Assembly: GCA_013151965.1 (NCBI GenBank)
Contig: JAADHF010000089.1
Location: 1-44,206 of the forward strand
DNA length: 44,206 nucleotides
Origin: Spirochaetota bacterium
GTDB taxonomy: Bacteria > Spirochaetota > Spirochaetia > SZUA-6
Direction: 5' to 3'
The translations under genes and the position numbers were made by a program. Shown here piece by piece: positions 4,351-44,206 of this stretch (positions within the stretch are counted from its first letter, which is position 1; the number at the start of each line of letters is the position of its first letter). The notes under the pieces are model-generated. The model did no database searches. It was given only the letters and a program-made list of their open reading frames with translations, and was not told where the DNA came from.

Positions 4351-5471
4351 GCAGAGATTCGGATAGTATAAATACATCTTCTTTTTTAAAGAGCCTGGGA
4401 TTTCCGGAAGTGGCGATTCACAGATCCTTCGACCATTTCGATTTTAAGAAAGCCGGCAGAAGAATACTGGTGATAGGGCCGATGGGTTCCGGAAAAACCG
4501 AGTATTCATCCAGGGTATGGAGAGATTCTCTTGTAGCCAAAAAGAAATCCGATGCAATAGAGTCGCTGACAAAAACCGGGAATGCGGATAGGCGGAATGT
4601 ATTTTTTATACGGTCGATTCTGGATGAGGAACGTTTTCCGGACTACCCCTCCGATGCACTTGCATACCGCGGCGGTTACGAACGATGCGGGGCAAATATA
4701 GCGTCGATACGTGATTCTTTTGAACTTGAAAAGATCATCGGCGGTAATCCGCATATCGGTACATGGATAATCGACGAAGCTACTTTCTATGAGGAACGGG
4801 TTGCCTATATAGTTAAGAATGGGTCGGAAAAAAACAACTTAATTTTTATTTTCCCGTCACTTATACTTAATTTCAGAAAGGAGATTTTTAATCCTACGGC
4901 AAAACTTCTACTTGATATCACAACTGATATCTTTCCGCTTACCGCCTACTGCGAACATCCGGACTGCCTTAAGGATTCTTTTTATACGTACAGATATTAT
5001 ACAGTTGGTAACGAAGAATGTCCTGCACTTTACTTTGATCCGCTGATAATAATCGGAGGAGACAGGGACAAGGACAACCCCCTCGAGCCTGATTACTGCA
5101 CGCGGTGCGACAGGCATCATTATCTTCCAGGCAAAGAATATACCTTTCTGATACTGAAACCCCTTGGAGAAAAAGCCTCCGAAGGCGACTACGAACCGCT
5201 TAAAAAGGAACTTTCTTTAATCAGGAACAGCATGGAAAAATCCGCACTTTATATGCATTTTTACGAGAAGTACATCGAGATTTACGACCCCGAACCTGTT
5301 ATGATGAATGCACTTAAAGTCCCATGTATTGCAGAAAAAGCGCTGATCTATCTCTTTGCCGAACAGAATTTAATCCCGGCGGGTAAACTTAAAATACTTG
5401 CAGGGGAACTTGATTTAAATACCGAATATATGGAAAAGAGATTGACGGACAATCACAGGTCCTTTTTATGA
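4347..5471 (+). CDS. Divergent thymidine kinase (TK1-family) homolog with a long insertion and a C-terminal extension
   Basis: P-loop VIGPMGSGKTE matches TK1 ILGPMFSGKSTE. IDEATFY matches TK1 IDEGQFF. IIGGDRD...CTRCDRHHY matches the TK1 VIGGADKYHSVCRLCY zinc/lasso region. The ATGA at 4347-4350 overlaps the upstream gene's stop. Confidence 0.55.
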   Translation: MSRDSDSINTSSFLKSLGFPEVAIHRSFDHFDFKKAGRRILVIGPMGSGKTEYSSRVWRDSLVAKKKSDAIESLTKTGNADRRNVFFIRSILDEERFPDYPSDALAYRGGYERCGANIASIRDSFELEKIIGGNPHIGTWIIDEATFYEERVAYIVKNGSEKNNLIFIFPSLILNFRKEIFNPTAKLLLDITTDIFPLTAYCEHPDCLKDSFYTYRYYTVGNEECPALYFDPLIIIGGDRDKDNPLEPDYCTRCDRHHYLPGKEYTFLILKPLGEKASEGDYEPLKKELSLIRNSMEKSALYMHFYEKYIEIYDPEPVMMNALKVPCIAEKALIYLFAEQNLIPAGKLKILAGELDLNTEYMEKRLTDNHRSFL

Positions 5472-31293: not shown

Positions 31294-34200
31294 ATGAGCT
31301 TATTATCCCGGGCGCTTTTTAAGATTCTTTTGTTCCAGTAATTACTCTCCATAAATTTTCTCTTTATCTCCGGAGAACTTATCCTGTTTGCCCTTTCCTG
31401 AAGTGTATTCCATGCTCTGTTCAGCATGGTAAATCTGTTTTCTCCAAGGCACTCGGAGTAGAGAAAGTAATAATAGTGCATGTACGGATCAAAATCCGGT
31501 ATTTTACCATGAAGAATATCCTGAAATCCGTTAATTGATTTTTCACTGTTTCCGGACAGATAGTACATATACGATAAAAACGAAACGGAAATCCTCTTCA
31601 GCATGGAATCCGAAAGGTCGAGGCACCTTCCTTCTACCGAATAAAATCCGTCGAGCCAGAAAATCCTGTCTCCTGGCAGAAAATCGTATCCGGATATCTT
31701 AATCCCGCCGTCCTCCATAAAACCCGATGCTTTTTCATATTCATTCGTCATATAGCACCCTTCTGCTGTAAACAGGAGATTCAGCTGAGACTTTTCCATA
31801 TGATCCAATATTTCAAGGCCGGTTCGTACACTGCCCCCGTAGATAAACGCACGGGCGAGCCATGCATAGACAACCTTCTCCGCTTTTTCTATTTTGTACA
31901 GAGAGAGGTAGGAGAGAGTTTTTTCCAGTACTGCAATACATCCGTCGTACAGCCCGATCTCGAATAGAAACCTTGCCTTTAAAAAATAGATAAAAACTTC
32001 CCATTCCCTGGAGAACGTTCCCGGTGTAATTTTTAATGCTTCGTCACAGTATAAAAGAGCATCACTGAGATCTCCCTGTATAAAACGGGTTATGGCGGAC
32101 AATACTACGATACTGATGGAATCAAGCGCCGATTCTGTACCGGAAATTCTGCCCGCAAGAAGAAAATACTCGAGTGCATCATCGAGCTTGCCGCGTGCAA
32201 GCATTGTACGCCCGAGTTTTATGTAGGAAGCGCGCATTCCGTCTGAATTATTCAGACTCTGAAATTTAAGCAGAGCATGTTTAGACAGAGACAGGGATTC
32301 CTCCACATTTTTTAAGGCGATATTAAGCCCTGCGATTGTTATATCCGAATCCGGAAACACGGTTAAATCCATTCTATTATCAATTTGATCTCTATTCTCC
32401 ATGTACAGGCTGTATGCTTCTTTAAAACGTCCGCTTAAACCCAGCTGATCTATCCTGTAAAGCAGCATGGCGGTTTCCAGGCCTGCACTATTCCTCTCGC
32501 TGCCTCCGGAAAGCAGCTGTTTCCATCGTGATTCTTTTAAAAAATTATCAATTCCCGTTAAATCTCTCTCATTCAGTTTTCTTTGAATAATGGCATGATA
32601 AACCTTTCCTGCAAGTTTAAACTTCTCCAGTTTAAGAAAGAAGTAGAATAGAAGTACATAGTTTGTATATTCAAATGCTTCCCATTTTTTTGTAAGATAT
32701 TCTACAAATTTTTCTATAACCTCGTTGTAAACATTCGGAACATTTTTTAAGCCGCTCATGTCGGGAAGGATATACTCTTTGCCTTCCACGAATCCGAAGT
32801 TCCGAAGACTATTGACAATTGCCGTACCATCCCGCTCCGAATACCCAAGTGAAACGATAAAATGAAGCTGATCGGTATACTTTAAAATACCTCTCGAAAT
32901 GTAGAGAGAGTGCAATACCTTTTTCTGGTCAGGGTCTAACATATTCGATAAATAGCGGCTGCAGGTTTCCGAATCCGGAAGATTATCATTTTCCGAAAAT
33001 TCAAGATAAAGAAGGCAGTGCAGTACAGGAGAATACAGCCCTTTTGTAATCCGTCTTATTTTTCGCAGCAATTTTTCGGAAAGTATAAGCTTTTCATCCA
33101 CCTTTAGTGCAAGTTCTTTGATCATATACCTGCTTAATGGTGCTATATATACCTTCCGTAATTCCATGCTCTCCAGATCTTTAAGGATTACCTTATCCGA
33201 TGAAACAAATAACGGAACAAATACTTCATATTCGGAAAAATCATGCATCATCGATAATAAGAAACGCCGGCTTTCGGAATTGTATAAATCCACATCGTCA
33301 CAAACAAAAACAGCAGGCAGATTCTTTTCCTCCATCATCCTGATAAATGCAAGAACGTAGAGATGATAAGCAAGGAAAAAATCCTCCACTATATGGTCCG
33401 GAATAATCGTATTCATTCTTTTTTTACGGGACAGGGTAAATTCTCTAAAAAGAGGCATTATTTCATCGAACACCTTCCTTTCATGGGGCAAAAGATATTC
33501 ACTTATATATTCGAAAACATCGCTTCTGATGCTGTTTAAAAAGGGATGAATCGGAGAACTGCTCTTAAAAATACTAAACAGCCGAATCCATGGATTTGTT
33601 TCATCCCTGCCTAAAATCTTCTTTACCGCTTCATACACTATTTCTGTTTTACCGACTCCTCTGTAGCCAAATACATATGGCACTGTTTTTTTATCCATAC
33701 CGTTTAAACGCGGGGTAAGTGCATCTAAAACTCTTTCTACTCCATCCTCCCTGACCCAGTTATAATCCTTAATATATTTAAGCCTGTTTTCCCTATGATT
33801 TTGTTCCCCGGTTAAATCGATACCGGTTACTTTCCATAATGTTGTAAGGGAGGAGGATTTAACTTTATCCAGGGTCGTAAATTCCTCTGCGATACTAAGC
33901 AGAGAACTGTCTATCCAGAGGGAATTCTCTTCCTCGATCCTGATAATTGTATTTTTCATATATTCGTATACTTCGGCGGAAGATAAATCCCTGTTTTCCG
34001 AGATCAAAAGATTATACCCAAATAATTCCGCATCTCTTTCGGAAAGAAAATCAACAATAGAAAGTCCTGCTTTAATAACCTGTTTAAGCAGGATTTTTTT
34101 ATCTCTGCCTTCATATTCATAAAAACCAAGACAGTCATTACTTTCCATATCTTTAATTCGGAGAGCAGTTCCTGTCTGTGTCTGCTTTTCCGTATACTCT

Positions 34201-34367
34201 TCGATAGCCGATACAAGACTGTTATTAATCTTTGCTAACTGCTTTCTGCCATTTATTCTTATTAATAGGTATATCATATTTATAATTAAACAACAAAAAT
34301 AGAGTATTTTCAAATCCATTTTTCGTATCAAATGAGATAAATCGATTAATTCATCGATCATTGACAT
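31290..34367 (-). CDS. STAND-type P-loop NTPase with a 230-aa N-terminal region (one predicted TM helix) and a C-terminal TPR-like helical array
   Basis: Walker A GYRGVGKTE and Walker B AVFVCDDVDLY. The hydrophobic N-terminal segment is LKILYFCCLIINMIYLLIRI. The C-terminal 500 aa are helical repeats. Confidence 0.65.
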   Translation of the reverse strand: MSMIDELIDLSHLIRKMDLKILYFCCLIINMIYLLIRINGRKQLAKINNSLVSAIEEYTEKQTQTGTALRIKDMESNDCLGFYEYEGRDKKILLKQVIKAGLSIVDFLSERDAELFGYNLLISENRDLSSAEVYEYMKNTIIRIEEENSLWIDSSLLSIAEEFTTLDKVKSSSLTTLWKVTGIDLTGEQNHRENRLKYIKDYNWVREDGVERVLDALTPRLNGMDKKTVPYVFGYRGVGKTEIVYEAVKKILGRDETNPWIRLFSIFKSSSPIHPFLNSIRSDVFEYISEYLLPHERKVFDEIMPLFREFTLSRKKRMNTIIPDHIVEDFFLAYHLYVLAFIRMMEEKNLPAVFVCDDVDLYNSESRRFLLSMMHDFSEYEVFVPLFVSSDKVILKDLESMELRKVYIAPLSRYMIKELALKVDEKLILSEKLLRKIRRITKGLYSPVLHCLLYLEFSENDNLPDSETCSRYLSNMLDPDQKKVLHSLYISRGILKYTDQLHFIVSLGYSERDGTAIVNSLRNFGFVEGKEYILPDMSGLKNVPNVYNEVIEKFVEYLTKKWEAFEYTNYVLLFYFFLKLEKFKLAGKVYHAIIQRKLNERDLTGIDNFLKESRWKQLLSGGSERNSAGLETAMLLYRIDQLGLSGRFKEAYSLYMENRDQIDNRMDLTVFPDSDITIAGLNIALKNVEESLSLSKHALLKFQSLNNSDGMRASYIKLGRTMLARGKLDDALEYFLLAGRISGTESALDSISIVVLSAITRFIQGDLSDALLYCDEALKITPGTFSREWEVFIYFLKARFLFEIGLYDGCIAVLEKTLSYLSLYKIEKAEKVVYAWLARAFIYGGSVRTGLEILDHMEKSQLNLLFTAEGCYMTNEYEKASGFMEDGGIKISGYDFLPGDRIFWLDGFYSVEGRCLDLSDSMLKRISVSFLSYMYYLSGNSEKSINGFQDILHGKIPDFDPYMHYYYFLYSECLGENRFTMLNRAWNTLQERANRISSPEIKRKFMESNYWNKRILKSARDNKLI

Positions 34368-34395: not shown

Positions 34396-35952
34396 GTGAG
34401 TTCTAAACCGGTGAAACCAGAAAAACAGCAGGAGAACGGCAAAGAAAGCTTTTTTCAGAAATTATTCTCCATATTGATGGGTAGTTCCGACCCGGAAAAG
34501 GAAAAGAAAAGATTACTAAAACAGATAGAAAAAAATCTGAAAAAGCAGAGGGTGAAATTTTATAACTCAAGAAACAATACCGTTCTTCCGCGTCTTGCCC
34601 GGTACTTTTATGAGTTTTACAAAGTTCTCGCACCTGCACAAAATCTTATCAGAAGAGGGGAAACATCCAAATCGCTGCAGATGCTCATAATCGAAACATC
34701 CCTGACGGAAGACCAGTTCCTGGTAAAAGAAAAACTCTCCGAAGAATCGATCCGCAGCAGATTACAGGGAGCTGCCGATCAGGATATTATTTTCGAGGAA
34801 GTAAGAAACGACATAAAAAATTTCTTCCTGGAATTTGATATTAACCGTGTGGGTGAAATAGATGCAAAATATAATAATGCCGTATTACTTTTGGACCTTA
34901 TACATTTCGACTACTATTTTCTTTTAAAAAAATTCGATTCCGGTTTGCCGGAAAATGATTTTCTATACAAACCTCATTTTGAAGAAATAGATGCAGAGTA
35001 CGTTGCAGACGATATCAAAGATTTTCTCGAGATAATTCCCGCAATAAATACATCTGTTAACTGGTCTGATATTATCGATATGCTTAACCAGTTCCGGGGA
35101 GTGGAAATTATTCCGGAAGCGGGGTGGAAAAAAATACTGCACCTGACGCGGCAAATTCAAAAAACAGAAATTTTTACAATGCTTGTGCAGCTTATTACAA
35201 AGGATCCCTTCTATAAGCCCTCGCCGAGAGTATATAAAGCAAAAATAGTGGAGAACTACCTCGGAAAACTTAAAACACAAACGGAAATTACAATTCAGCG
35301 TTTCCTGCAGGAGAAACATTCATCAAAGATCGGTGAATTGGCAAAATACCTGTTCGGCACCACATCCATAGTACGTCTTAAAAATTACTCTGATAAAGCA
35401 AATATTTTATTTACAAAACTGCTTCTCGGAGGTTTTTCACATATTGCTTCGCTAAACTATCTAAAGGCATTCTTACTGGATTATTTAAAAAAAGACATAC
35501 GGGAATTTATAGACCTGCTGCTTATTAAAGGAAAATGGACTTCCAATCTGGTTTCTCAACAGCTTTCGGAAACATACCATAAGCTTTTAAAACTATCCGA
35601 TGAAATCAGTGAATTCGACAGTTCTCTCGATGAAGAGCAAATACTCGGAAAGAAACTAAAGGCACTGCTTATAAAAAGCAAAAGGGATAAAAAAGCTGTA
35701 AGCCAGCTTCGCCTGCTTCTTAAAGAGATAAACGATATGGCAAAGGGAATGCTCGCCAGAGCAGCTTCCGACCTGATAATACTGGGTAAAACTTTAAAGA
35801 GTACACTCGATGATTATCAGAAACCGCATCCTGAATTGATTATTAACTGGAAAGAGATAAAAAATTACACGGAGAAAGATGTTAAAATATTTATCGTGGA
35901 TATATACAGAAAAATCTATAATTTTCTGCAGCTTTTAAAATTGACCAAATAA
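34396..35952 (+). CDS. Hypothetical Lys/Glu-rich alpha-helical protein
   Basis: 518-aa ORF with a GTG start, diverging from the STAND gene across a 28-bp gap. No recognisable motifs. Confidence 0.5.
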   Translation: MSSKPVKPEKQQENGKESFFQKLFSILMGSSDPEKEKKRLLKQIEKNLKKQRVKFYNSRNNTVLPRLARYFYEFYKVLAPAQNLIRRGETSKSLQMLIIETSLTEDQFLVKEKLSEESIRSRLQGAADQDIIFEEVRNDIKNFFLEFDINRVGEIDAKYNNAVLLLDLIHFDYYFLLKKFDSGLPENDFLYKPHFEEIDAEYVADDIKDFLEIIPAINTSVNWSDIIDMLNQFRGVEIIPEAGWKKILHLTRQIQKTEIFTMLVQLITKDPFYKPSPRVYKAKIVENYLGKLKTQTEITIQRFLQEKHSSKIGELAKYLFGTTSIVRLKNYSDKANILFTKLLLGGFSHIASLNYLKAFLLDYLKKDIREFIDLLLIKGKWTSNLVSQQLSETYHKLLKLSDEISEFDSSLDEEQILGKKLKALLIKSKRDKKAVSQLRLLLKEINDMAKGMLARAASDLIILGKTLKSTLDDYQKPHPELIINWKEIKNYTEKDVKIFIVDIYRKIYNFLQLLKLTK

Positions 35953-35973: not shown

Positions 35974-37050
35974 ATGAGTATCAGTTCAACCGTATATTTT
36001 ATACCACTGCAGAAGAACAGTGTAATGGAGGAGAGAATAGAAGCCACCGATACACTTATTAAAAGTATAGGTTTCGATGAGATCTTTGATAAAAATGATA
36101 AAATAGGAATAAAACTCCACATAGGCGAGCGTAATAACGACACTCATATTGCTCCGGAGATAATACACTCCATTGTAGCGGAAGTTAAAAAAACCGGAAG
36201 CCGTCCTTTTCTTACCGAGACGTCGACTCTGTACAGAGGATCCCGTTCCGATGCCGTCAGCCATTTGACTCATGCATTCGAACACGGGTTTACGATAGAA
36301 AAAACAGGAGCTCCCTTCATTATGGCGGACGGACTTGTGGGAAATGCCGAAACAGAAGTACCGATACATGGTATACTCTTTCAAAGTGTTAACATTGCAC
36401 GTGAAATCACGCTTGCGGAGGGCCTGATAGCTGTGTCTCACGCCACAGGCCATATTCAGGCGGGTTTGGGGGGTTGTCTTAAAAATCTGGGAATGGGCCT
36501 TGCAAGCCGTATCGGAAAAATGCGGCAGCATTCATCGGTAAAACCCTACATCGGAGAAAGTCTCTGCACATTCTGCGGGCTATGTATAAAATGGTGCCCG
36601 GTCGATACCATAATAGAAAAAAACGGCAAAGCTTTTATAGTTCAGGACAAGTGTATCGGCTGCGGTGAATGCCTTGCTGTCTGTTCCTTCGATGCGGTTA
36701 AATATAACTGGGGAGTAGAGTCCTCCCGCCTGCAGAAAAGCGTTGCAGAACACGCACTTGGTGTCATTATCGATAAGAGGAACAAAGTGCTCTTCTTAAA
36801 TTACATGACGGATATGACAAAGGATTGTGACTGTCTCGGTTCAAAGCAGAAAAGAATAATTTCTGATATCGGAATACTTGCATCACGTGACCCTGTAGCT
36901 GTAGATCAGGCAACTCTCGATTTAACGAAACAGGCATCCGGGGCAAATTTAGCCTCCATAAGCTGGCCGAGAATCGACCCGCAGATACAGCTCGAACACG
37001 GCGAAAAAATAGGTCTGGGTTCCAGAAATTACAAACTTATCAAACTTTGA
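35974..37050 (+). CDS. DUF362-family protein with an embedded 2x[4Fe-4S] ferredoxin domain
   Basis: Cys clusters CTFCGLCIKWCP and CIGCGECLAVCS. SD AGGAGG lies upstream. It sits 21 nt after the preceding gene. Confidence 0.7.
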   Translation: MSISSTVYFIPLQKNSVMEERIEATDTLIKSIGFDEIFDKNDKIGIKLHIGERNNDTHIAPEIIHSIVAEVKKTGSRPFLTETSTLYRGSRSDAVSHLTHAFEHGFTIEKTGAPFIMADGLVGNAETEVPIHGILFQSVNIAREITLAEGLIAVSHATGHIQAGLGGCLKNLGMGLASRIGKMRQHSSVKPYIGESLCTFCGLCIKWCPVDTIIEKNGKAFIVQDKCIGCGECLAVCSFDAVKYNWGVESSRLQKSVAEHALGVIIDKRNKVLFLNYMTDMTKDCDCLGSKQKRIISDIGILASRDPVAVDQATLDLTKQASGANLASISWPRIDPQIQLEHGEKIGLGSRNYKLIKL

Positions 37051-37162: not shown

Positions 37163-37672
37163 TTAGATATTTACACCTTCGATTGACAGAAGGTATCTCT
37201 TGCGTTCCACGCCTCCGCCGTAGCTGCCGATTTTACCGGATGCTTTAATAACCCTGTGGCATGGTATAATGATAGAAACACGGTTGCTACCCACAGCGGT
37301 ACCTGCGGCCCTGCAGGCACGGGGATGCCCGATTCTATGTGCAATACTGCCGTAACTTTCTACCCTGCCGCAGGGGATTTCCTTAAGCGCATTCCATACC
37401 GCCATCTGAAAATCAGTTCCCGCGACCGAAACCGGTATACTGAAACTCTTTCTTCTTCCGGCAAAATATTCATCAAGCTCTTTTTTTAGTAAATCCGCTT
37501 TCCCGTTTTCACCGGCAGGTAATATTTTTATATTTCGAAACAGCCGGTTCCAATCACCGGCACAGTCCTTAAAACCAAGATAAACAACACTTCCCTGTTC
37601 CGTCAGAATAAAATCGATAATACCCGCCGGTGATTTATACGTTCCGCTATAATAATTTATATCTTTACACAT
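37163..37672 (-). CDS. ogt: Methylated-DNA-protein-cysteine methyltransferase; start trimmed to Met at 37672 (ORF track extends to 37708)
   Basis: Active-site motif IPCHRVI and a helix-turn-helix region. Length 169 aa. Confidence 0.8.
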   Translation of the reverse strand: MCKDINYYSGTYKSPAGIIDFILTEQGSVVYLGFKDCAGDWNRLFRNIKILPAGENGKADLLKKELDEYFAGRRKSFSIPVSVAGTDFQMAVWNALKEIPCGRVESYGSIAHRIGHPRACRAAGTAVGSNRVSIIIPCHRVIKASGKIGSYGGGVERKRYLLSIEGVNI

Positions 37673-37677
37673 ATCTC

Positions 37678-38811
37678 TTAATAACGGTAGCGGAAACCTG
37701 CACTGCACGATATCCCGCCGTTTCTATTCCACCCCCATATACCGCCCGATTCTCCGAACTGCAGTCCGGCCTGAACCATTATATCCAATCCCTGGTATAC
37801 ATTCCAGCCTGTTCCCGCAAAAACAATTCCCGACAGATCGATCAACGAAATGAGCGACCGTACACTGAAATTCAGAGCCGTATCCGGAGCATAGCTGAGC
37901 TCCGGGTAGAGAAAAATACCGTAACCGGGATCAGATCCCGCAGAGGCAGTTTCTGTCTGCGTCCAGAGCCCGTAAGGCATAACTCTGGTTTCCATTCTTA
38001 CCGTTACAATACCCCCGGCCTGTACACTTATCTGTCTCATGAAGCCGGCCGTAATTGTAAGACTATCCTTCACTGCATCAACTATAGCAGTAACGGCTCC
38101 TTCCGGTAGAATTACCGAACAGTCCGAATAGATATCTGCAAAAAGGTGCCCCTGAAAACTGATATAGGGTGTTACGGTATTTTTTGTATAGAGACCTCCG
38201 GCCTCTAACTTTATTCCGGCAAGCTGTGTAACAATCCTGCCGCCGTAGCGCGCATTATTCCAATGCACAACAGTGAAAGATGAAGAAGGCGCTGCGGAAC
38301 CGGCGGGAAAAGGCAGTACAATCCCCTCTGCAAAGGAGAAAAGCCCCAGGGGAATATAGATATCTGCAAGCCAGTCCGTTTCCGTCCGAAGCACATCGTA
38401 GGATAAACTCCGCAATAAACCGGCACCTTCAAAGATGATATCCCCTGCATTAAACAGAAAGCCCTCCCCCCAGCTTACCCTGTTTTTACCTGCGGTAATT
38501 CTGAATCCGGGAAAACGTGCCTTTATATATAACCTGGGAATATCAAATTTAACAGTATCCGTGACATACGCAGCAAGCTCCAGGTATCCGCGGACATTCT
38601 TATTACCCGATGATTTTACAATAAGGCTGCTCTGAACGATTCCGGAAATACCGATATCATCATCAATTTTAGTCACACCGGCCATGGCCGTAATCTTCAC
38701 GGTGGTAATTGTCTTTGCATGTACAGAAGGAATAAAATAAATCATGAGAATTAAGAACGTAAACAAAACAGAGAACCTTTTACTTCGTAAAACTTTTAAT
38801 TCCATCACCAT
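37678..38811 (-). CDS. Predicted outer-membrane beta-barrel protein
   Basis: N-terminal signal peptide (FTFLILMIYFIPSVHA). The sequence is rich in alternating hydrophobic/Gly/Thr/Ser residues and ends in the aromatic terminus ...GFRYRY. A 7-nt overlap joins it to the upstream LolA-like gene. Confidence 0.55.
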   Translation of the reverse strand: MVMELKVLRSKRFSVLFTFLILMIYFIPSVHAKTITTVKITAMAGVTKIDDDIGISGIVQSSLIVKSSGNKNVRGYLELAAYVTDTVKFDIPRLYIKARFPGFRITAGKNRVSWGEGFLFNAGDIIFEGAGLLRSLSYDVLRTETDWLADIYIPLGLFSFAEGIVLPFPAGSAAPSSSFTVVHWNNARYGGRIVTQLAGIKLEAGGLYTKNTVTPYISFQGHLFADIYSDCSVILPEGAVTAIVDAVKDSLTITAGFMRQISVQAGGIVTVRMETRVMPYGLWTQTETASAGSDPGYGIFLYPELSYAPDTALNFSVRSLISLIDLSGIVFAGTGWNVYQGLDIMVQAGLQFGESGGIWGWNRNGGISCSAGFRYRY

Positions 38812-39560
38812 GAAAGTTCCTCGAGAGAGAAAATACCGGGGTCAACGGGGACGTCGATCTGAATATTATTAATTATAAATGTCGTTCTGGAATCCTTTTT
38901 CATCCTGTCTTCCATCACAAACCATACGGGAATATTTTTACCCTTGACCTTAATAACCTTCCGTATTTCCATTTCCTTTATAAGCCTCCCGGAAAGTGCA
39001 TAGTAATAGGCCTTTCTCAGTACAAAGAGTTCCGAATCCACCCATAACTTCTCACCCGGATATACGGCCTTTCTATTTTTTGCAGTAAGCTTCAGTGTAT
39101 AACACTCTCTTCCGTTTACGGTTTCCATACCTTCCGCTTCGACATCGTATATATCGAGCAGACCCTTTTCTCCCGTTAAATCTTCATACGAGAAATCCGA
39201 CCCCAGAACAGAATCCCGGAGAGCGCTCCCTTTTAAATGAATGACATCTTCCGCCTCCGGAAAGTAAAGGTAGATTTCATCACCTGCTCTTAATATCTTC
39301 TGTCCGGCTTCTTCGGGATTGGTAAATTCAAGAAGGGTTCTGTCGGTTCCTAGCGAAACCAGTTTAAATGTCTTTTTTCTCTCTCCGAACTTATCGGTTA
39401 TAATAAAGACTCCTTCCAGTCTTGCACTTTTCTGAACCTGGTTGGCTTCCATCTTTTTTATTATTTCTTCTCCCGTAAGATTCCGTGCAAACACGTGCTG
39501 CACCGGTATCAGCGGCAAAAACAGTAATAACAGCACATTCCTGATAACATATTTATTCAT
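38805..39560 (-). CDS. Periplasmic LolA-fold protein (outer-membrane lipoprotein-sorting protein-like)
   Basis: Signal peptide MNKYVIRNVLLLLFLPLIPVQHVFA. At 251 aa with an N-terminal helix followed by a beta-rich body, it resembles the LolA-like family that accompanies FtsX/MacB ABC systems. The family call is from memory of the pattern. Confidence 0.55.
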   Translation of the reverse strand: MNKYVIRNVLLLLFLPLIPVQHVFARNLTGEEIIKKMEANQVQKSARLEGVFIITDKFGERKKTFKLVSLGTDRTLLEFTNPEEAGQKILRAGDEIYLYFPEAEDVIHLKGSALRDSVLGSDFSYEDLTGEKGLLDIYDVEAEGMETVNGRECYTLKLTAKNRKAVYPGEKLWVDSELFVLRKAYYYALSGRLIKEMEIRKVIKVKGKNIPVWFVMEDRMKKDSRTTFIINNIQIDVPVDPGIFSLEELSW

Positions 39561-39606
39561 CTTAAAAACCTCCGTACTTTTAAAAATAAGATATTTTAAG
39601 CCATAA

Positions 39607-39637
39607 GCCCTGCCCGGCCGGCGCGCAGGCCGTCTGC
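39607..39637. promoter_or_regulatory. GC-rich palindromic island in the 100-bp intra-operon gap
   Basis: CCCTGCCCGGCCGGCGCGCAGGCCGTCTGCC contains CCGGCCGG and GCGCGC palindromes. It is embedded in AT-rich spacer between the FtsX permease stop and the LolA-like start. Confidence 0.3.
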
Positions 39638-39660
39638 CTAACCAGGCTATAATTAACAGA

Positions 39661-40890
39661 CTATAAAGCCCTTAATGCTTCCACAGGTTCTATCCGGGCA
39701 GCCCTCCTGGACGGAATAAATGAAGCGAATGACGACACGGCGACTGCGTAGAAGAATACAAGTACAGTCGAACGCATGTCCAATTGCGGATGCAGAACCG
39801 TGGAAATATCAAAATTTATACCCTGCATATACGCACTTAAATCGAGACCGGTTACAGTAAGAGGCAGTATAATTCCAACACCGAGTATCACCCCGGTAAG
39901 TGCGGATATTAGGCTGATAAAAAATGATTCCAGAAAAAACAGACCTACAATTTCGGAGCCTGTCATACCCATTGCAGACATTGTGCCTATCTCACGCATT
40001 CTTTCATAGATTACCATCATTGTTGTATTTATTATCACCGTAGAACCCAGGATAAAAAAGATAAGTGCGATAATTTGATACATTACATCCGCCATCCTGA
40101 TGATGGAGTACCATGTTCCTATGGAGGTCCATGGCACTACCTCGAGAGGCTGTCCGCTGTCTGCAAGTAATTTTTTTATACCGGATACTGTTTCTTTTAA
40201 TCTCGATACGTCTTTTAGCAACAGCAGTATTTCCGTTGCGGAATTATCCATTTTTAAAAACCTCTGGGCAGTATCGATAGGCATATAGAAAAAACTCTTA
40301 TTAAAACTTTCTACCTTAAAACGGACGATACCTGTAATTTTAAATGTCATCCCTGACATCCCCATATACATATTCCTGGAAAGCATTGTAATTTTATCTC
40401 CTGTCCCGACACCCATTTCTTTCGCCAGCCCGGAGGAAAGAATAATTTCACGTTTCCCCGGTGCCGGCAGCCTTCCCTTTACAAGATTCTCTCCGAAATT
40501 CTGAAAATCTTTTTCGAGATTAAAATCGAGCCCGAGTCCGATTCCCCTGTAATCCTTATCATTTCTGTAAATGCTGGTATAAAAGCGTATCCTCGGAGAT
40601 ACGGCAAGGACATTACTATACGCTCTGCATTTCTCTATTACAGACCGGTAATTTTTTATCCTGAGATTTAACGGGTTTAAGCTTTCGTACTCTGTGTAAG
40701 CACTGTTGCGGATTCGAATATTCCCTGTTATATAGTGAAAGATATTGTTTCTCATATCCTGCATCATTCCGCCTTCCAGAGAAAACATGAATACGATAGT
40801 AAACGCTGCAATTACTATCGCTGTTCCGGAAAGTATGCTCCGTCTTTTATTCCTCTTTATATTTCTTAAAGCAATTCTGTATAGTTTCAC
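39661..40890 (-). CDS. ABC transporter permease, FtsX/MacB/LolE-like
   Basis: N-terminus MKLYRIALRNIKRNKRRS. TM1, a roughly 220-aa periplasmic domain, then three C-terminal TM helices. Confidence 0.8.
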   Translation of the reverse strand: MKLYRIALRNIKRNKRRSILSGTAIVIAAFTIVFMFSLEGGMMQDMRNNIFHYITGNIRIRNSAYTEYESLNPLNLRIKNYRSVIEKCRAYSNVLAVSPRIRFYTSIYRNDKDYRGIGLGLDFNLEKDFQNFGENLVKGRLPAPGKREIILSSGLAKEMGVGTGDKITMLSRNMYMGMSGMTFKITGIVRFKVESFNKSFFYMPIDTAQRFLKMDNSATEILLLLKDVSRLKETVSGIKKLLADSGQPLEVVPWTSIGTWYSIIRMADVMYQIIALIFFILGSTVIINTTMMVIYERMREIGTMSAMGMTGSEIVGLFFLESFFISLISALTGVILGVGIILPLTVTGLDLSAYMQGINFDISTVLHPQLDMRSTVLVFFYAVAVSSFASFIPSRRAARIEPVEALRAL

Positions 40891-40912
40891 TTTTTCTTCT
40901 CCTGTTTGATAC

Positions 40913-42148
40913 TTATTGATACTTAAGACAATCCGTAATTTCCATCTTCAGGGCACGGCCTGCAGGAACAAGAGCCGCTAACATCGAGACAATTACACCG
41001 AAAAAGAATGCGTAAACCATTGCTTTTAAATCCCATGCCGCCCTAAAAACACCGGATATCCTGTATCCGATATCCATCTCACCAAGATACGAAGAATAAT
41101 CAAGACCATACTTTACCATAAAGAATGTAAGCAGTGCTCCCAATGCAATACCGGCAGACGAACCGATAAATCCTATGCCGCCTGCTTCGAGGAGAAAGGC
41201 AATCCGTATCGACGAATCTTTCATCCCCATGGCACGCATCATTCCGATTTCACGGACCCTTTCGTACACAGCCATAAGCATCGTATTCGATATACCGACC
41301 ATAGCTATAATAAAGATAAGGAAGAGAAAAACACTTGTTCCTCCCCTTTTCCCTTCGGAGACCGAAACGAAATCTTTTGCAAGTTCTCTCCAACTTTCCA
41401 CCACCAGGCCGGGAAAAGATTTCTCGATTTTGCCGGTTAAAAGAACAAGCTTTTTATCAGGAGACGCCCATTCCGGCATACCCAATGCCACCTCGGTTAC
41501 TCTTCCGCCCATCTCCATTGCTCTGTCCGCCAGAGAAAGAGGAATAAAAGCGGTACCCTTGTTTATCATAGGATTCGGTGAATTAATAATTCCCTTTACC
41601 TCCAGGTCGATAACCTGATAAGCTCCCAATCTTGTCCTGGTCCTGATTGTTACAATATCCCCCAATTTTATATTTAAGTCTCTTGCAAGCCATGCACCTA
41701 CAAGAACTCCGTATTCACCGGGCTTTAAATATTTACCTTTTGTGAGTGTCTCTTTTAACTTAAACACATTTTCATCTGTTTTAGTGTCTATTCCGTACAC
41801 TTTTACAGGCAGCGAACCGGTTTCGTCGAACATCTCGGCAGTAAAGGCTATGCGTTTTGTCCACGAGAAACCGGAATCTTTTATTGTATTCACCAGTGCG
41901 GGTGAAGGTTTAAAACTGTCCTTTAAAGGGAGATAATCGATATTTTTCCAGTAATCCCTGTCCATAATTTTTGCAGCTCCGGTTTCGTACCAGATTAAGT
42001 TCCTCTCCGAATCCTTTTCCGCACCGAGCAGAAAACCATCCACCAGGATGTATAAAGATATGCCTATGGCAATTACAATAACGGTAATTATAGTTCTGCG
42101 CTTATACCTGGAAAGATTCTTCCATGCCAGGGAAACTAAAAATCTCAT
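40913..42148 (-). CDS. ABC transporter permease, FtsX/MacB/LolC-like; start trimmed to MRFLVSLAWKNL at 42148 (ORF track extends to 42253)
   Basis: Same 1+3 TM architecture. The Met at 42148 lies 1 nt after the ATPase stop and has a G-rich SD. The longer ORF would overlap the ATPase by 104 nt. Confidence 0.8.
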   Translation of the reverse strand: MRFLVSLAWKNLSRYKRRTIITVIVIAIGISLYILVDGFLLGAEKDSERNLIWYETGAAKIMDRDYWKNIDYLPLKDSFKPSPALVNTIKDSGFSWTKRIAFTAEMFDETGSLPVKVYGIDTKTDENVFKLKETLTKGKYLKPGEYGVLVGAWLARDLNIKLGDIVTIRTRTRLGAYQVIDLEVKGIINSPNPMINKGTAFIPLSLADRAMEMGGRVTEVALGMPEWASPDKKLVLLTGKIEKSFPGLVVESWRELAKDFVSVSEGKRGGTSVFLFLIFIIAMVGISNTMLMAVYERVREIGMMRAMGMKDSSIRIAFLLEAGGIGFIGSSAGIALGALLTFFMVKYGLDYSSYLGEMDIGYRISGVFRAAWDLKAMVYAFFFGVIVSMLAALVPAGRALKMEITDCLKYQ

Positions 42149-42149
42149 T

Positions 42150-42836
42150 TTAAGTCCCCCCTTTCTTTTTTTCATCCACAATTCTGCCGTCGTGAAGCAT
42201 AACAAGTCTGCGTGCAAAATCCATGACCATCGGATCATGAGTGGAAAATACAAAGATCGTTTTATATTTTCCGTTAAGATTTTCCATAAGTTTCAGAATG
42301 TCTTTTCCGGTCGCGGAATCGAGATTTGCCGTCGGCTCATCGGCCAGAACAAGGGCGGGCTCCTTGATCAGGGCACGTGCGATGGCTACCCTCTGCTGCT
42401 GCCCGCCGGATAGTTCTGCGGGAAATCTCTTTTCCATTCCGCCAAGTCCGACTTCGTAAAGTATCGCGAGTGTCCGCTCCTTAAGCTCTTTCTCTCCGGT
42501 CCCAAGAAGTGACAGAGGAAAGGAGACATTTTCGAAGGCGGTGAGAACAGGGATAAGATTAAAAGACTGAAAAACAAAACCTATCTTTTTCCTGCGCAGC
42601 AGAGCAAGCTGTTTTTTACTTTTGGCGGAAACAGGCTCATTATCGATGTATATCTCTCCCGAACTGCACTTATCCAGACACCCTATAAGATTAAGAAGTG
42701 TTGTTTTCCCTGACCCCGAAGGCCCTGCTATGGAGAGAAATTCCCCTGCCTCTATTCCCATAGTAATGCCCCGAAGTGCATTAACAACCGTTTTTCCTGC
42801 CGAATAATCTTTTGTTATATTGGAAACTTTTACCAT
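42150..42836 (-). CDS. ABC transporter ATP-binding protein (MacB/LolD-type)
   Basis: Walker [11 protein letters not shown]-loop, signature [15 protein letters not shown], Walker B LVLADEPT and H-loop STHD. Length 228 aa. Confidence 0.9.
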
Positions 42837-42839
42837 ACA

Positions 42840-43934
42840 CTATTCTCCTTTCCCGCTATTATCTATAGATTTTTTTTCCGCATTCTTAACTAATGCTGCG
42901 GAACCAAGTATGGTGCCCAAAGACATGGATTCTATTGCAGAGGAGGGAAGCAGAATAATAGAACCCTGCTTTTTTAGACCCTCGAATATCATGTTCATTG
43001 CACGCAGGTGCAGGGCTGTGGGATTATTTTTGTATTTTTCGGAAGCTTCCTCGAATTTCTCCGCCACTTCCACCTCTGCCGTTCCAAGAATTACCCGGGA
43101 CATTCGTTCCCGCTCTGCCTGGGCCTGTTTGGACATCGAATCTTCCAGTTCCTTAGGAATAATTATGTCGCTGATTTCGATGGATAGAACCGTTATTCCC
43201 CAGGAATTGGTCTTTGCATCGAGCGCTTTTTGTATCTCCCTGCCAAGGCGTTCTCTTTCCGAAAGCAATTCCGACAGATCATGCCTGCCGATCGCATCAC
43301 GCAACACAGCCTGGGAAGAGAGAATTACAGCCTCCATGAAATCTTCCACTTCGATGACTGCTTTTTTAGCATCCCAGACCATCCAGAAAGCTATTGCATT
43401 TACATTTGTCGGCACCGTATCTTTTGTCAGTGTTGTTTCCGCCCTGAAGTCGGTTGCCCTGATCCTTGTATCCACATACCGTATTACCGAATCCATCATC
43501 GGCAGTATCAGAAACACTCCCGGTCCGTTAAGCGACTTGAACTTCCCAAGACGCAGTACAACAGCTTTTTCCCATTCCCTTGCTATCTGGACAGCAGGCG
43601 CCGCAACAAACCCCAGGGAAAGAAAGATAAAAACAGGATAATAACTTACGGGCAGTCCTATAAACATAGCGATCCAGCTTACTATAATAAGCTTGACAAT
43701 AACATTCCATGCCGGCATGGCTGCTATAACAGCCCCGGCTACAAGCATTCCCAGCACTATATAGACAATGTACAGTGGTTCCACACCGCCGCTTAAGAAA
43801 CTCTGAACAATAATACCGGCTGCAAGAAGCATCGCGAGAATAAAAAAACTCAAGACATTAAAGTGGAAATCCTTCCATAAAATACTTTTGACCTTATTTT
43901 TTATAAGGCTGCTCTGTTTTAATTGTAATTTCAT
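42840..43934 (-). CDS. SPFH/band-7 (stomatin-like) protein with an unusually long, roughly 110-aa N-terminal region of about 4 TM helices
   Basis: SPFH core AVVLRLGKF...PGVFLILPMMD...VVHWN-type segment and a C-terminal coiled coil. There is a 3-nt gap to the ATPase gene. Confidence 0.75.
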   Translation of the reverse strand: MKLQLKQSSLIKNKVKSILWKDFHFNVLSFFILAMLLAAGIIVQSFLSGGVEPLYIVYIVLGMLVAGAVIAAMPAWNVIVKLIIVSWIAMFIGLPVSYYPVFIFLSLGFVAAPAVQIAREWEKAVVLRLGKFKSLNGPGVFLILPMMDSVIRYVDTRIRATDFRAETTLTKDTVPTNVNAIAFWMVWDAKKAVIEVEDFMEAVILSSQAVLRDAIGRHDLSELLSERERLGREIQKALDAKTNSWGITVLSIEISDIIIPKELEDSMSKQAQAERERMSRVILGTAEVEVAEKFEEASEKYKNNPTALHLRAMNMIFEGLKKQGSIILLPSSAIESMSLGTILGSAALVKNAEKKSIDNSGKGE

Positions 43935-44206
43935 GTATTAAACTCCTTTAAATACTCGATTACCTCGTTTAAAGAAAATCCGTACGAGGCTGTTTTTGTA
44001 ATAAATGATTTTGCCAGTTCACTTAAGATCTTCTCCCTTTCCACATCTGTCAGGGTTATCCGCTTGTCACTGACAAAGGTGCCTGTGCCCTGCTGGCTTG
44101 TCGCGATGCCCCGGATTTCAAGTTCATTATACGCTTTTGCAACGGTATTCGGGTTTACCTGCAAAGATACGGCAAGGCTTCGTACGGTGGGGAGCTGATC
44201 CCCGGT
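43931..44206 (-). CDS. GntR-family (YtrA-like) transcriptional regulator, 5'-truncated by the window edge
   Basis: Translating to the edge gives TGDQLPTVRSLAVSLQVNPNTVAKAYNELEIRGIATSQQGTGTFV, the canonical GntR winged-HTH. The listed TTG at 44164 is internal. The short C-terminal tail is typical of the YtrA subfamily. A 4-nt overlap joins it to the SPFH gene. Confidence 0.75.
   Translation of the reverse strand, partial: TGDQLPTVRSLAVSLQVNPNTVAKAYNELEIRGIATSQQGTGTFVSDKRITLTDVEREKILSELAKSFITKTASYGFSLNEVIEYLKEFNT

What the first reader, a model, noticed from the sequence alone, without database searches (positions are those of the whole stretch)
37678..44206. YtrA-type GntR + multi-TM SPFH + MacB/Lol-like ABC + LolA-fold protein + outer-membrane barrel: candidate envelope-spanning export module
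Seven minus-strand genes are joined by overlaps or very short gaps (43931/43934, 42840/42836, 42150/42148, 38811/38805, 37678/37672). This indicates one transcription unit, with ogt possibly riding along. Read from the sequence: a MacB/LolD-type ATPase; two FtsX permeases with the 1+3 TM topology and a large periplasmic domain that makes these ABC systems mechanotransmission exporters; a signal-peptide protein with LolA-like features; a signal-peptide protein ending in the aromatic C-terminus GFRYRY, typical of beta-barrel OMPs; and an SPFH scaffold protein with an atypical 4-TM N-terminus. Together they suggest an IM-periplasm-OM route for a hydrophobic cargo (lipoprotein, lipid or peptide), gated by a YtrA-type repressor. 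I do not recognise this exact gene combination (SPFH + two FtsX + LolA-like + barrel) as a described system.
Basis: partly seen in the sequence, partly recalled or inferred. Interest (0 to 1): 0.7.

Follow-up and report, generated by a model that had tools for sequence, protein, structure and literature searches.

The report
Spirochaete Lol-like ABC, carrier and barrel operon
A conserved spirochaete operon pairs a Lol/MacB-type ABC transporter with its own LolA-like periplasmic protein and an unnamed 18-stranded outer-membrane barrel, which most likely moves a greasy molecule from the inner to the outer membrane and gives the unexplained "LolA3-type" proteins a testable job.

Summary
Eight tightly packed minus-strand genes encode:
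- a YtrA-type GntR fragment, cut by the contig end;
- a stomatin-type slipin with four N-terminal hydrophobic segments;
- a LolD/MacB-like ATPase;
- two FtsX/MacB_PCD permeases;
- a PF17131 LolA-like protein;
- a 377-aa protein with no Pfam match;
- ogt.

Among species-level genomes the barrel was found only in Spirochaetota. It always follows the LolA-like gene (73/73 loci) and the ABC genes (62/62). GntR plus slipin precede the cluster in 44/58 loci; other loci have TetR. ogt follows in only 7/73.

A 22-bp palindrome lies upstream of gntR in 42/44 relatives.

My best reading is an inducible envelope-spanning exporter for a hydrophobic cargo. It would be an ABC-driven counterpart of the DUF1302/DUF1329/RND (AmeABCD) systems, and distinct from canonical LolCDE-LolA, MacAB-TolC and Borrelia BBJ23-29. 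Cargo and direction are unproven. I rate it a new variant of a known, poorly characterised kind.

The parts
43931..44206 (-). C-terminal 91 codons of a short GntR-family (YtrA-type) repressor. The N-terminus, promoter and operator lie beyond the contig end.
   Evidence: Pfam GntR 1.1e-12. The best NCBIfam hits are the YtrA-like Rv1152 and PmtR families, both below cutoff. Full-length orthologues are 133-151 aa and carry only PF00392. A palindrome TTGTAYTA-N6-TARTACAA lies upstream in 42/44 related loci.
42840..43934 (-). Stomatin-type slipin (SPFH/Band 7) with four N-terminal hydrophobic segments. The SPFH domain is predicted to be cytoplasmic.
   Evidence: Band_7 1e-33. Matches human stomatin structures at 4e-37, PH stomatin at 1e-36 and QmcA at 2e-26. 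Hydrophobic segments at 27-43, 56-72, 78-94 and 101-117; there are 6 K/R before the first and 5 K/R after the last. Start overlaps the GntR stop.
42150..42836 (-). ABC ATPase of the LolD/MacB/DevA/FtsE group.
   Evidence: ABC_tran 4.8e-34. LolD TIGR02211 scores 213.8 bits, below the 307.75 cutoff. Walker A GPSGSGKT, signature LSGGQQQR and Walker B LVLADEP can be read in the translation.
40913..42148 (-). Type VII ABC permease 1 (FtsX fold, 1+3 TM, MacB-like periplasmic domain).
   Evidence: FtsX 1.7e-18 and MacB_PCD 4.3e-8. TM segments at 23-41, 273-291, 322-340 and 376-394. Nearest solved sequences are LolE 1.8e-14, LolF 5e-13 and YtrF 3e-9. lolCE TIGR02212 scores 103.6 against a cutoff of 362.45.
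39661..40890 (-). Type VII ABC permease 2, a paralogue of permease 1. The two presumably form a heterodimer.
   Evidence: FtsX 2.5e-19 and MacB_PCD 2e-17. TM segments at 18-36, 263-281, 324-342 and 374-392. Nearest solved sequences are LolF 5e-17, LolE 8e-15 and LolC 2e-11. TIGR02212 scores 149.4 against 362.45.
39561..39660 (-). 100-nt intergenic spacer between permease 2 and the LolA-like gene. It has no recognisable signal.
   Evidence: No terminator-like site here. The fold is no better than shuffles (z 0.36). The spacer is 23-126 nt in relatives.
38805..39560 (-). Periplasmic LolA-superfamily protein of the PF17131 / LolA3 type. It has a signal peptide and no lipobox cysteine.
   Evidence: PF17131 1.3e-48. 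3BUU 5e-14 by sequence. AF2 pLDDT 84.9. Foldseek: LolA3 9TP6 E 1e-20 with TM 0.80/0.83, 4Z48 TM 0.82/0.85; canonical LolA scores only TM 0.41-0.49 normalised to the query (0.53-0.62 to the target).
37678..38811 (-). Outer-membrane 18-stranded beta-barrel of an unnamed family with no Pfam model. Its start overlaps the LolA-like stop.
37163..37672 (-). ogt (O6-alkylguanine-DNA alkyltransferase). Probably co-transcribed, but not a conserved member of the module.
   Evidence: DNA_binding_1 1.4e-32 and TIGR00589 1.1e-32. Starts 5 nt after the barrel stop. Present downstream in 7/73 loci and in L091.

Best explanation
The locus encodes an inducible transport module that spans the cell envelope and handles a hydrophobic or amphiphilic cargo.

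**Proposed mechanism.**
1. A heterodimer of two FtsX/MacB-type (type VII ABC) permeases is powered by a LolD-like ATPase dimer. It extracts the cargo from the periplasmic face of the inner membrane by mechanotransmission, as LolCDE and MacB do.
2. The cargo passes to the dedicated soluble LolA3-type (PF17131) protein.
3. That protein delivers it to, or sits docked on, the co-translated 18-stranded barrel. The barrel inserts the cargo into the outer membrane or releases it through it.
4. A YtrA-type GntR represses the operon at a 22-bp palindrome that overlaps its own promoter. The operon is derepressed by a ligand or stress signal.
5. The stomatin-type slipin, whose SPFH domain is predicted to face the cytoplasm, forms an oligomeric ring that corrals or regulates the ABC complex.

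**Shown here:** gene content, the protein folds, co-conservation, and the operator-like motif.

**Inferred:** physical hand-over between the parts, outward direction, the nature of the cargo, and the role of the slipin.

The interchangeable local repressors (GntR or TetR), the patchy distribution and the occasional second copy all point to an accessory efflux or envelope-lipid export function rather than housekeeping lipoprotein sorting.
For: - **Domains and folds:**
- **Tight coupling of genes in the window:**
- **Synteny in species-level genomes:** LolA-like directly upstream of the barrel in 73/73 loci; ATPase and permeases in 62/62; GntR plus slipin in 44/58.
- **Translational coupling in relatives:** the LolA-like and barrel genes overlap by 4-7 nt in L001, L002, L003 and L085, and are 8-11 nt apart in L087, L088 and L091.
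- **Searches from other genes lead back to the same module:** from the slipin and from the LolA-like protein.
- **TetR replaces GntR plus slipin** in S. thermophila and other loci.
- **A palindrome lies upstream of gntR** in 42/44 loci and nowhere in the window.
- **Analogous architectures in other phyla:**
  - Prevotella: MMPL - PF17131 - DUF1302.
  - Ralstonia: PF17131 - ABC - fused FtsX - 381-aa weak DUF1302.
  - Persicobacter: TetR - 378-aa signal-peptide protein - ABC - FtsX - FtsX - PF17131.
- **Literature:**
  - Deleting AmeABCD (a DUF1302 barrel, a DUF1329 LolA-like protein, a propeller protein and an HAE3 RND pump) lowers monoterpene tolerance and raises Nile Red accumulation (PMC6394551).
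  - DUF1302, DUF1329, BNR and RND genes show cofitness (10.1101/072470).
  - DUF1302 is an 18-stranded barrel whose best structural matches are OccAB and AlgE, and AlphaFold-Multimer predicts a complex with DUF1329 at ipTM 0.84 (PMC13499233).
Against: - There is no experimental evidence for this module in any organism.
- No cargo-synthesis gene is linked to it.
- The direction is inferred only from the known behaviour of type VII ABC transporters.
- P. putida DUF1302/DUF1329 mutants are impaired on fatty esters as carbon sources. That could mean uptake or processing rather than export.
- F. johnsoniae lolA3 deletion showed no phenotype in the assays used.
- Contact between the barrel and the LolA-like protein was not modelled, because no multimer tool was available.
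- Homology of the barrel to DUF1302/Wzi is only sub-threshold.
- The slipin and GntR are absent from about a quarter of loci, so they are not needed for the core function.
Confidence: 0.55

Rival explanations
1. It is a lipoprotein-trafficking route, either the organism's Lol pathway or a second specialised one. The ABC complex would release lipoproteins to the LolA-like carrier. The barrel would stand in for the LolB that spirochaetes lack, inserting lipoproteins into the outer membrane or flipping them to the surface.
For: - The nearest solved relatives of both permeases are LolF, LolE and LolC.
- The best NCBIfam hit of the ATPase is LolD.
- The carrier has a LolA-superfamily fold.
- In Borrelia, LolA depletion did not affect surface-exposed lipoproteins (as cited).
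Against: - All Lol equivalog scores fall far below cutoff: 213.8 against 307.75 for LolD, and 103.6 and 149.4 against 362.45 for LolCE.
- The carrier is of the LolA3 type. It scores TM 0.8 to LolA3, but only 0.41-0.49 (normalised to the query) to canonical LolA, including B. burgdorferi LolA.
- P. gingivalis LolA3 does not pair with LolB and lacks the LolA arginine and the LolB leucine.
- Control by a local repressor, GntR/TetR swapping, patchy distribution and two copies in one genome are unlike a housekeeping pathway.
Confidence: 0.15
2. It is an acquisition system for hydrophobic nutrients such as fatty esters, lipids or hydrocarbons. The barrel would be the uptake channel, and the LolA-like protein would ferry the substrate inward to the inner membrane.
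For: - The barrel's best structural matches are uptake channels of the OccD/OprD family and ChiP.
- P. putida DUF1302/DUF1329 mutants lose fitness on Tween 20 and butyl stearate.
- DUF1329 and DUF1302 genes sit in aromatic, steroid and terpene catabolic islands.
Against: - From established knowledge of MacB, LolCDE and FtsEX, type VII ABC transporters (the FtsX/MacB fold) have no transmembrane substrate path. No importer of this fold is known.
- No catabolic genes are linked to the module in any locus inspected.
- Deleting AmeABCD reduced tolerance to monoterpenes, consistent with efflux.
Confidence: 0.12
3. The ABC part is a sensing or protection module for envelope stress or antimicrobial peptides, in the manner of B. 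subtilis YtrABCDEF or the Bce-type systems. On this reading the LolA-like and barrel genes are merely neighbours that form an independent porin pair, and nothing passes between them and the ABC part.
For: - The regulator is YtrA-type.
- YtrF is among the solved sequences that match both permeases (3e-9 and 5e-8).
- A 100-nt gap separates the ABC genes from the LolA-like gene in the window.
Against: - The LolA-like and barrel genes never occur without the ABC genes in this family (62/62).
- The spacer shrinks to about 23 nt in relatives.
- The same three-part logic recurs with other pumps in other phyla.
- No palindrome or above-chance promoter signal lies in the gap.
Confidence: 0.08

Closest known systems
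AmeABCD of Castellaniella defragrans and the wider DUF1302 / DUF1329 / BNR / HAE3-RND clusters (PMC6394551; Price et al., 10.1101/072470; PMC13499233)
   Same: - A periplasmic LolA-superfamily protein is encoded next to an 18-stranded outer-membrane barrel and an inner-membrane pump.
- The solved structures that best match the carrier here are the ones cited for AmeB (4Z48, 3BUU, 3BK5).
- The PDB neighbours of the barrel here (Occ channels, AlgE) are the ones reported for DUF1302.
- A hydrophobic substrate is implied.
- Prevotella has MMPL - PF17131 - DUF1302 in a row.
   Different: - The engine here is a type VII ABC transporter (ATPase plus two FtsX permeases), not an HAE3 RND pump.
- There is no BNR/COG4447 propeller protein.
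- The carrier is the short PF17131 form (251 aa), not the roughly 450-aa DUF1329.
- The barrel is 377 aa rather than about 600 aa, and it does not reach the DUF1302 Pfam threshold. The window protein gives no hit even at E<=10, and 4/42 family members give weak hits.
- A GntR plus a slipin are added.
LolCDE-LolA(-LolB) lipoprotein sorting
   Same: - An ATPase plus a heterodimer of 4-TM FtsX-fold permeases with large periplasmic domains.
- A soluble carrier with an unclosed beta-barrel fold.
- LolF, LolE and LolC are the nearest solved sequences.
   Different: - The scores are below all Lol equivalog cutoffs.
- The carrier is LolA3-type rather than PF03548 LolA.
- The outer-membrane partner is an integral 18-stranded barrel, not a LolB lipoprotein.
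- The operon is repressor-controlled and accessory.
Borrelia BBJ23-BBJ29 cluster (PMC13078400, 2026; computational proposal)
   Same: - It is a spirochaete cluster.
- It combines a MacB-like ABC transporter, a LolA-like protein and an outer-membrane barrel.
[quoted passage not shown]
   Different: - The Borrelia cluster has one permease (a homodimer) and two TPR proteins, and no slipin or GntR.
- A tblastn search of the LolA-like protein against PLSDB plasmids (E-value limit 1e-3) returned no Borrelia record.
- The authors found their seven-gene cluster only in Borrelia.
MacAB-TolC tripartite efflux pump
   Same: - The permease fold and the MacB periplasmic core domain (PF12704).
- ATP-driven mechanotransmission.
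- An export function regulated by a local repressor.
   Different: - There is no membrane-fusion (HlyD-type) adaptor and no TolC-type duct.
- The ATPase is a separate polypeptide.
- A LolA-like protein and a monomeric 18-stranded barrel take the adaptor and duct positions.
Bacteroidota LolA3 (P. gingivalis PGN0947, PDB 9TP6; F. johnsoniae Fjoh_0605)
   Same: - It is the best structural match of the carrier (E 1e-20, TM 0.80-0.84).
- It belongs to the same PF17131-type branch.
- It is a soluble protein with a type I signal peptide.
   Different: - Sequence identity is only 21-22%.
- The LolA3 papers consulted describe no partner transporter or barrel. They report only that LolA3 does not pair with LolB and that its function is separate and unknown.
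B. subtilis YtrA regulon (ytrABCDEF) and stomatin/slipin (QmcA, PH1511) systems
   Same: - A short YtrA-type GntR encoded at the head of an ABC operon with an FtsX-fold permease.
- The slipin SPFH domain is close to stomatin, PH stomatin and QmcA.
   Different: - This is a diderm context with periplasmic and outer-membrane partners.
- The slipin has three extra TM segments.
- There is no NfeD partner gene.

Membership tests
LolCDE-LolA lipoprotein-sorting system | ATPase scores as a LolD equivalog (TIGR02211, cutoff 307.75 bits) | tested here: not met
   213.8 bits.
LolCDE-LolA lipoprotein-sorting system | Permeases score as LolC/LolE equivalogs (TIGR02212, cutoff 362.45 bits) | tested here: not met
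   103.6 and 149.4 bits. LolF, LolE and LolC are nevertheless the nearest solved sequences.
LolCDE-LolA lipoprotein-sorting system | Carrier belongs to the canonical LolA family and fold | tested here: not met
   Pfam gives PF17131, not the LolA family. Foldseek query-normalised TM is 0.41-0.49 to canonical LolA proteins against 0.73-0.82 to the LolA3/NE2245/4Z48 group.
LolCDE-LolA lipoprotein-sorting system | Substrate is triacylated lipoprotein; LolA docks on the LolC hook | not testable with these tools
   Needs binding assays or multimer modelling.
MacAB-TolC tripartite efflux | Permease with the FtsX fold plus the MacB periplasmic core domain | tested here: met
   PF02687 and PF12704 in both permeases.
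MacAB-TolC tripartite efflux | Membrane-fusion (HlyD-type) adaptor and TolC-type outer-membrane factor | tested here: not met
   None of the eight gene products matches such families. The barrel is an 18-stranded monomeric channel type.
DUF1302/DUF1329 (AmeABCD-type) envelope systems | Periplasmic LolA-superfamily protein encoded next to the barrel | tested here: met
   PF17131 lies directly upstream in 73/73 loci. It matches 4Z48 (deposited as a DUF1329 family protein), 3BUU and 3BK5.
DUF1302/DUF1329 (AmeABCD-type) envelope systems | Barrel is a member of Pfam DUF1302 (PF06980) | tested here: inconclusive
   The window protein gives no hit even at E<=10. Of 42 family members, 4 give weak DUF1302 hits (best 0.05) and 18 give weak Wzi hits (best 0.0014). 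hhalign against three PF17131-linked barrels gives probability 21%, E 0.0011, around a shared G-[KR]-x-R-x-x-WG motif. Strand number and PDB neighbours match those reported for DUF1302.
DUF1302/DUF1329 (AmeABCD-type) envelope systems | HAE3 RND pump and BNR/COG4447 propeller as partners | tested here: not met
   The partners are an ABC ATPase and two FtsX permeases. No RND or BNR gene is present in the cluster.
Borrelia BBJ23-29 cluster | Omp85-type barrel (BBJ25) and two TPR proteins | tested here: not met
   [not shown]
YtrA subfamily of GntR regulators | About 120-150 aa: a winged HTH plus a very short C-terminal part, encoded with an ABC transporter | tested here: met
   The window holds only the last 91 codons (GntR HTH 1e-12). 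Orthologues are 133-151 aa with PF00392 only. The nearest NCBIfam models are Rv1152 and PmtR, both below cutoff.
Stomatin/slipin SPFH proteins | SPFH domain of the stomatin type | tested here: met
   Band_7 1e-33. Stomatin 4e-37, PH stomatin 1e-36. NCBI names close homologues 'slipin family protein'.
Stomatin/slipin SPFH proteins | NfeD partner gene in the operon (usual for prokaryotic stomatins, from general knowledge) | tested here: not met
   There is no NfeD-like gene in the window cluster or in the relatives inspected.

The most novel reading that the evidence does not exclude
The module is a LolB-independent pathway of spirochaetes. A LolA3-type carrier, loaded by a dedicated Lol-like ABC extractor, docks on an 18-stranded barrel that inserts or flips lipoproteins (or a glycolipid) into the outer leaflet of the outer membrane. 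A stomatin-type cage around the ABC complex gates loading. On this reading it is a previously unrecognised outer-membrane lipid or lipoprotein translocon, and it gives the first physiological role to both LolA3-type proteins and the DUF1302-like barrels.
Probability: 0.12. Interest if true: 0.85.

Novelty: new variant of a known kind. Interest (0 to 1): 0.55.

Why it matters
**An open question about LolA3-type proteins.** PF17131/LolA3-type proteins are widespread and several have solved structures, but papers from 2025-2026 state that their function is separate from Lol sorting and unknown. DUF1302-type barrels have no solved structure and no established function.

**What this locus offers.** It is a compact and very consistently organised example in which such a carrier and a related barrel are wired to a Lol/MacB-type ABC engine. 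That turns a vague association into a concrete three-step hypothesis: extraction, carrier, barrel.

**Why it is testable.**
- A cultivable carrier exists, Spirochaeta thermophila DSM 6578.
- A defined candidate operator is available for finding the inducer.

**Other points of interest.**
- The strict linkage of a multi-TM slipin to an ABC transporter offers a candidate bacterial client for stomatin-type cages.
- For spirochaetes, whose outer-membrane biogenesis lacks LolB, any new route from the inner to the outer membrane is of interest.

Tried and rejected
- **Barrel versus solved structures by sequence:** nothing meaningful.
- **Barrel versus Pfam and NCBIfam:** no hit. Only recurrent sub-threshold Wzi and DUF1302 hits appear across the family.
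- **hhalign of the barrel family against PF17131-linked barrels from other phyla:** no convincing homology. Persicobacter E 0.38, Prevotella 0.064, Ralstonia 0.011; the three together give probability 21%.
- **LolA-like protein against plasmids, to find Borrelia BBJ28:** no Borrelia hit at the E-value limit of 1e-3.
- **Internal terminator or structured RNA in the 100-nt gap:** none.
- **Operator palindrome inside the window:** none, because the promoter lies beyond the contig end.
- **afdb50 fold search:** library unavailable.
- **Literature searches:** TP0789 and PF17131 gave only incidental mentions. A search combining slipin/stomatin, 'ABC transporter' and FtsX returned four papers, none on such a module judging by their titles and abstracts.
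- **ogt as a module member:** rejected on synteny (7/73), although the adjacency recurs.
- **Canonical Lol system:** rejected on NCBIfam cutoffs and carrier type.

Full report
**1. What is in the window**

The window is the entire 44,206-bp contig of a 'Spirochaetes bacterium' MAG. The barrel gene carries locus tag GXP33_09350. Its nearest relative comes from a Guaymas MAG (L005).

On the minus strand between 44206 and 37163 lie eight genes:
- a GntR fragment, 43931..44206, which runs off the contig;
- an SPFH protein, 42840..43934;
- an ABC ATPase, 42150..42836;
- two FtsX permeases, 40913..42148 and 39661..40890;
- a LolA-like protein, 38805..39560;
- a 377-aa protein, 37678..38811;
- ogt, 37163..37672.

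They are an ATGA overlap, gaps of 3 nt and 1 nt, an ATGGTGA overlap and a 5-nt gap. Two junctions were not mentioned: a 22-nt gap between the permeases, and a 100-nt gap before the LolA-like gene.

That 100-nt gap holds no terminator-like site. It also has no structure beyond shuffled controls (z 0.36).

**2. The parts**

Pfam confirms GntR, Band_7, ABC_tran, FtsX plus MacB_PCD (twice), LolA_like PF17131 (1.3e-48) and ogt. The 377-aa protein matches nothing in Pfam or NCBIfam.

*Permeases and ATPase.*
- Hydropathy gives the 1+3 TM layout for both permeases.
- The ATPase and permeases are Lol-like but fall well below NCBIfam's Lol equivalog cutoffs: 213.8 against 307.75 for LolD, and 103.6 and 149.4 against 362.45 for LolCE.
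- By sequence, the nearest solved permeases are LolF, LolE and LolC, followed by MacB and B. subtilis YtrF.

*Slipin.*
- It is of the stomatin type: human stomatin 4e-37, PH stomatin 1e-36, QmcA 2e-26.
- NCBI names close homologues 'slipin family protein'.
- It has four hydrophobic segments before the SPFH domain.
- There are 6 K/R before the first segment and 5 K/R after the last. The SPFH domain is therefore predicted to be cytoplasmic.
- A multi-segment N-terminus is conserved in the 117 homologues of at least 340 aa. A crude hydropathy count gives 2-4 segments.

**3.

*Barrel.*
- With a 42-sequence alignment, AF2 gives pLDDT 90 and pTM 0.81.
- The model has an N-terminal signal helix and 18 strands.
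- The most conserved stretch of the family lies in a non-strand segment after strand 5, so it is a candidate functional loop. Its consensus is K-T-R-V-S-W-G-E-G-F-x-F-N-A-G-D. Residues W114, G115, G117 and N121 are invariant.

*LolA-like protein.*
- The model has pLDDT 84.9.
- Foldseek puts P. gingivalis LolA3 (9TP6) first (E 1e-20, TM 0.80-0.84).
- Next come NE2245 (3BUU), 4Z48 (deposited as a DUF1329 family protein) and 3BK5.
- Canonical LolA, LolB and RseB follow at E of about 1e-9 and lower TM.

**4. Conservation**

The barrel family is small:
- 42 clusters at 90% identity, none with a Pfam domain;
- 437 representatives at E<=1e-3 among 1.84 billion.

In one genome per species it was found 113 times. 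The best 80 hits are all Spirochaetota, including Marispirochaeta, Oceanispirochaeta, Sphaerochaeta, Thalassospirochaeta and Spirochaeta.

I ran tblastn with the window's proteins over 81 non-duplicate loci. Counting only loci with enough flanking DNA:

| Neighbour of the barrel gene | Loci |
|---|---|
| LolA-like gene directly upstream | 73/73 |
| ATPase, with the permeases between it and the LolA-like gene in every locus inspected in detail | 62/62 |
| Slipin | 44/58 |
| GntR | 44/58 |
| ogt downstream | 7/73 |

The slipin and GntR always occur together. The flanks differ between loci.

Searches that start from other genes of the cluster lead back to the same module:
- from the slipin;
- from the LolA-like protein.

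Loci without GntR and slipin often carry a TetR gene in front of the ATPase. One such locus is in the cultured Spirochaeta thermophila DSM 6578. Its 388-aa downstream protein is a clear family member (hhalign E 1.7e-57).

Further variation:
- Ca. Marispirochaeta associata has two copies of the module, one of each type.
- Some loci carry a third permease.

The core is therefore five genes, with interchangeable regulatory front ends.

**5. Regulation**

The window lacks the promoter. In 42 of the 44 relatives with GntR plus slipin, a 22-bp palindrome, TTGTAYTA-N6-TARTACAA, lies just downstream of a TTGACA-N17-TAnnnT site in front of gntR. It is absent from the whole window at up to 3 mismatches.

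This fits a single autoregulated promoter for the operon. That much is inference.

**6. The same logic elsewhere**

PF17131 genes in other phyla sit in comparable arrangements:
- Prevotella nigrescens: MMPL/RND - PF17131 - DUF1302.
- Ralstonia pickettii: PF17131 - ABC ATPase - fused double FtsX - a 381-aa protein with a weak DUF1302 hit.
- Persicobacter: TetR - a 378-aa signal-peptide protein - ABC - FtsX - FtsX - PF17131.

Sequence links between these barrels and the spirochaete family are only suggestive:
- 18/42 members give sub-threshold Wzi hits and 4/42 give DUF1302 hits.
- hhalign gives probability 21% around a shared G-[KR]-x-R-x-x-WG motif.

**7. Literature**
- Deleting AmeABCD of C. 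defragrans lowers monoterpene tolerance and increases Nile Red accumulation. AmeABCD comprises a DUF1302 barrel, a DUF1329 LolA-like protein, a propeller protein and an HAE3 RND pump (PMC6394551).
- Price et al. found cofitness of DUF1302, DUF1329, BNR and RND genes and proposed export of an envelope component.
- Thompson et al. saw fitness defects on fatty esters.
- A 2026 paper models DUF1302 as an 18-stranded barrel whose nearest structures are OccAB and AlgE. It also predicts a DUF1302-DUF1329 complex at ipTM 0.84 (PMC13499233).
- P. gingivalis LolA3 does not pair with LolB, and its function is called separate and unknown (PMC13103446).
- F. johnsoniae lolA3 deletion had no phenotype in gliding or T9SS assays.
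- A 2026 computational paper proposes a Borrelia cluster, BBJ23-29. [quoted passage not shown]
- In the searched library I found no paper describing the combination seen here.

**8. Interpretation**

The best-supported reading (confidence about 0.55) is an inducible route from the inner membrane through the periplasm to the outer membrane for a hydrophobic cargo. The steps are extraction by the type VII ABC transporter, carriage by the LolA3-type protein, and passage through the 18-stranded barrel.

The points in favour are:
- the folds of the proteins;
- the invariant synteny;
- the translational coupling of the carrier and barrel genes;
- the AmeABCD precedent;
- the efflux-pump style of regulation, with GntR/TetR swapping, patchy distribution and paralogous copies.

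Hand-over between the parts, direction, cargo and the role of the slipin are all inferred.

The rivals are:
- a specialised lipoprotein route (0.15);
- uptake of hydrophobic nutrients (0.12);
- a stress or antimicrobial-peptide module with an unrelated porin pair (0.08).

**9. Verdict**

Three corrections apply:
- The core has five genes.
- GntR plus slipin are accessory.
- ogt is a passenger.

The kind of system has partial precedents, so I rate it a new variant of a known but poorly characterised kind. Interest is moderate to high, because it offers a tractable hypothesis for LolA3-type proteins, for DUF1302-like barrels and for a slipin client.

Noticed in passing
Related loci, e.g. L003 about 4440-4470, L031, L049 (upstream of gntR); not in the window: A 22-bp palindrome, TTGTAYTA-N6-TARTACAA, sits just downstream of a TTGACA-N17-TAnnnT promoter-like site in 42 of the 44 loci that have GntR plus slipin. 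A half-site often lies between the -35 and -10 elements. It is a candidate YtrA-type operator. There is no copy in the 44-kb window.
   Followed up: yes
window 37163..37672; L002, L005, L006, L008, L010, L019, L035, L091: ogt follows the barrel gene within a few nucleotides in the window, in 7/73 species loci and in a divergent TetR-type locus. The adjacency recurs but has no evident functional link.
   Followed up: partly
window 34396..35952 (+); L085 10938-12512; L091 9659-11227: A DUF5312 gene lies next to the module in the window, in Spirochaeta thermophila and in L091. This suggests a conserved chromosomal neighbourhood. The window also has a DUF362/4Fe-4S gene at 35974..37050.
   Followed up: partly
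L015 and L032 (both Ca. Marispirochaeta associata JC231, JWTM01): One genome carries two copies of the ABC, LolA-like and barrel module. One copy has GntR plus slipin and the other has neither.
   Followed up: partly
L037, L053, L073, L087, L092: Some relatives carry a third FtsX permease in the module. Its position varies: before the ATPase, or between the LolA-like and barrel genes.
   Followed up: no
L089 (Prevotella nigrescens NZ_CP082843.1), L090 (Ralstonia pickettii NZ_CP104383.1), L084 (Persicobacter pPP1): PF17131 genes in Bacteroidota and Betaproteobacteria also sit beside an inner-membrane pump (MMPL/RND or FtsX-type ABC). A DUF1302 or DUF1302-like protein of about 380-435 aa with a signal peptide is also present.
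   Followed up: partly
window 40913..42253 (-): The mechanical ORF for permease 1 starts at TTG 42253 and would overlap the ATPase gene by 104 nt. The ATG at 42148, 1 nt after the ATPase stop and preceded by GGGGG, is the likely start.
   Followed up: yes
window 31290..34367 (-): A 1025-aa protein with an AAA_16 NTPase domain and TPR/MalT-like repeats (STAND-type regulator architecture) lies upstream of the DUF5312 gene. It is not linked to the module in other loci.
   Followed up: no
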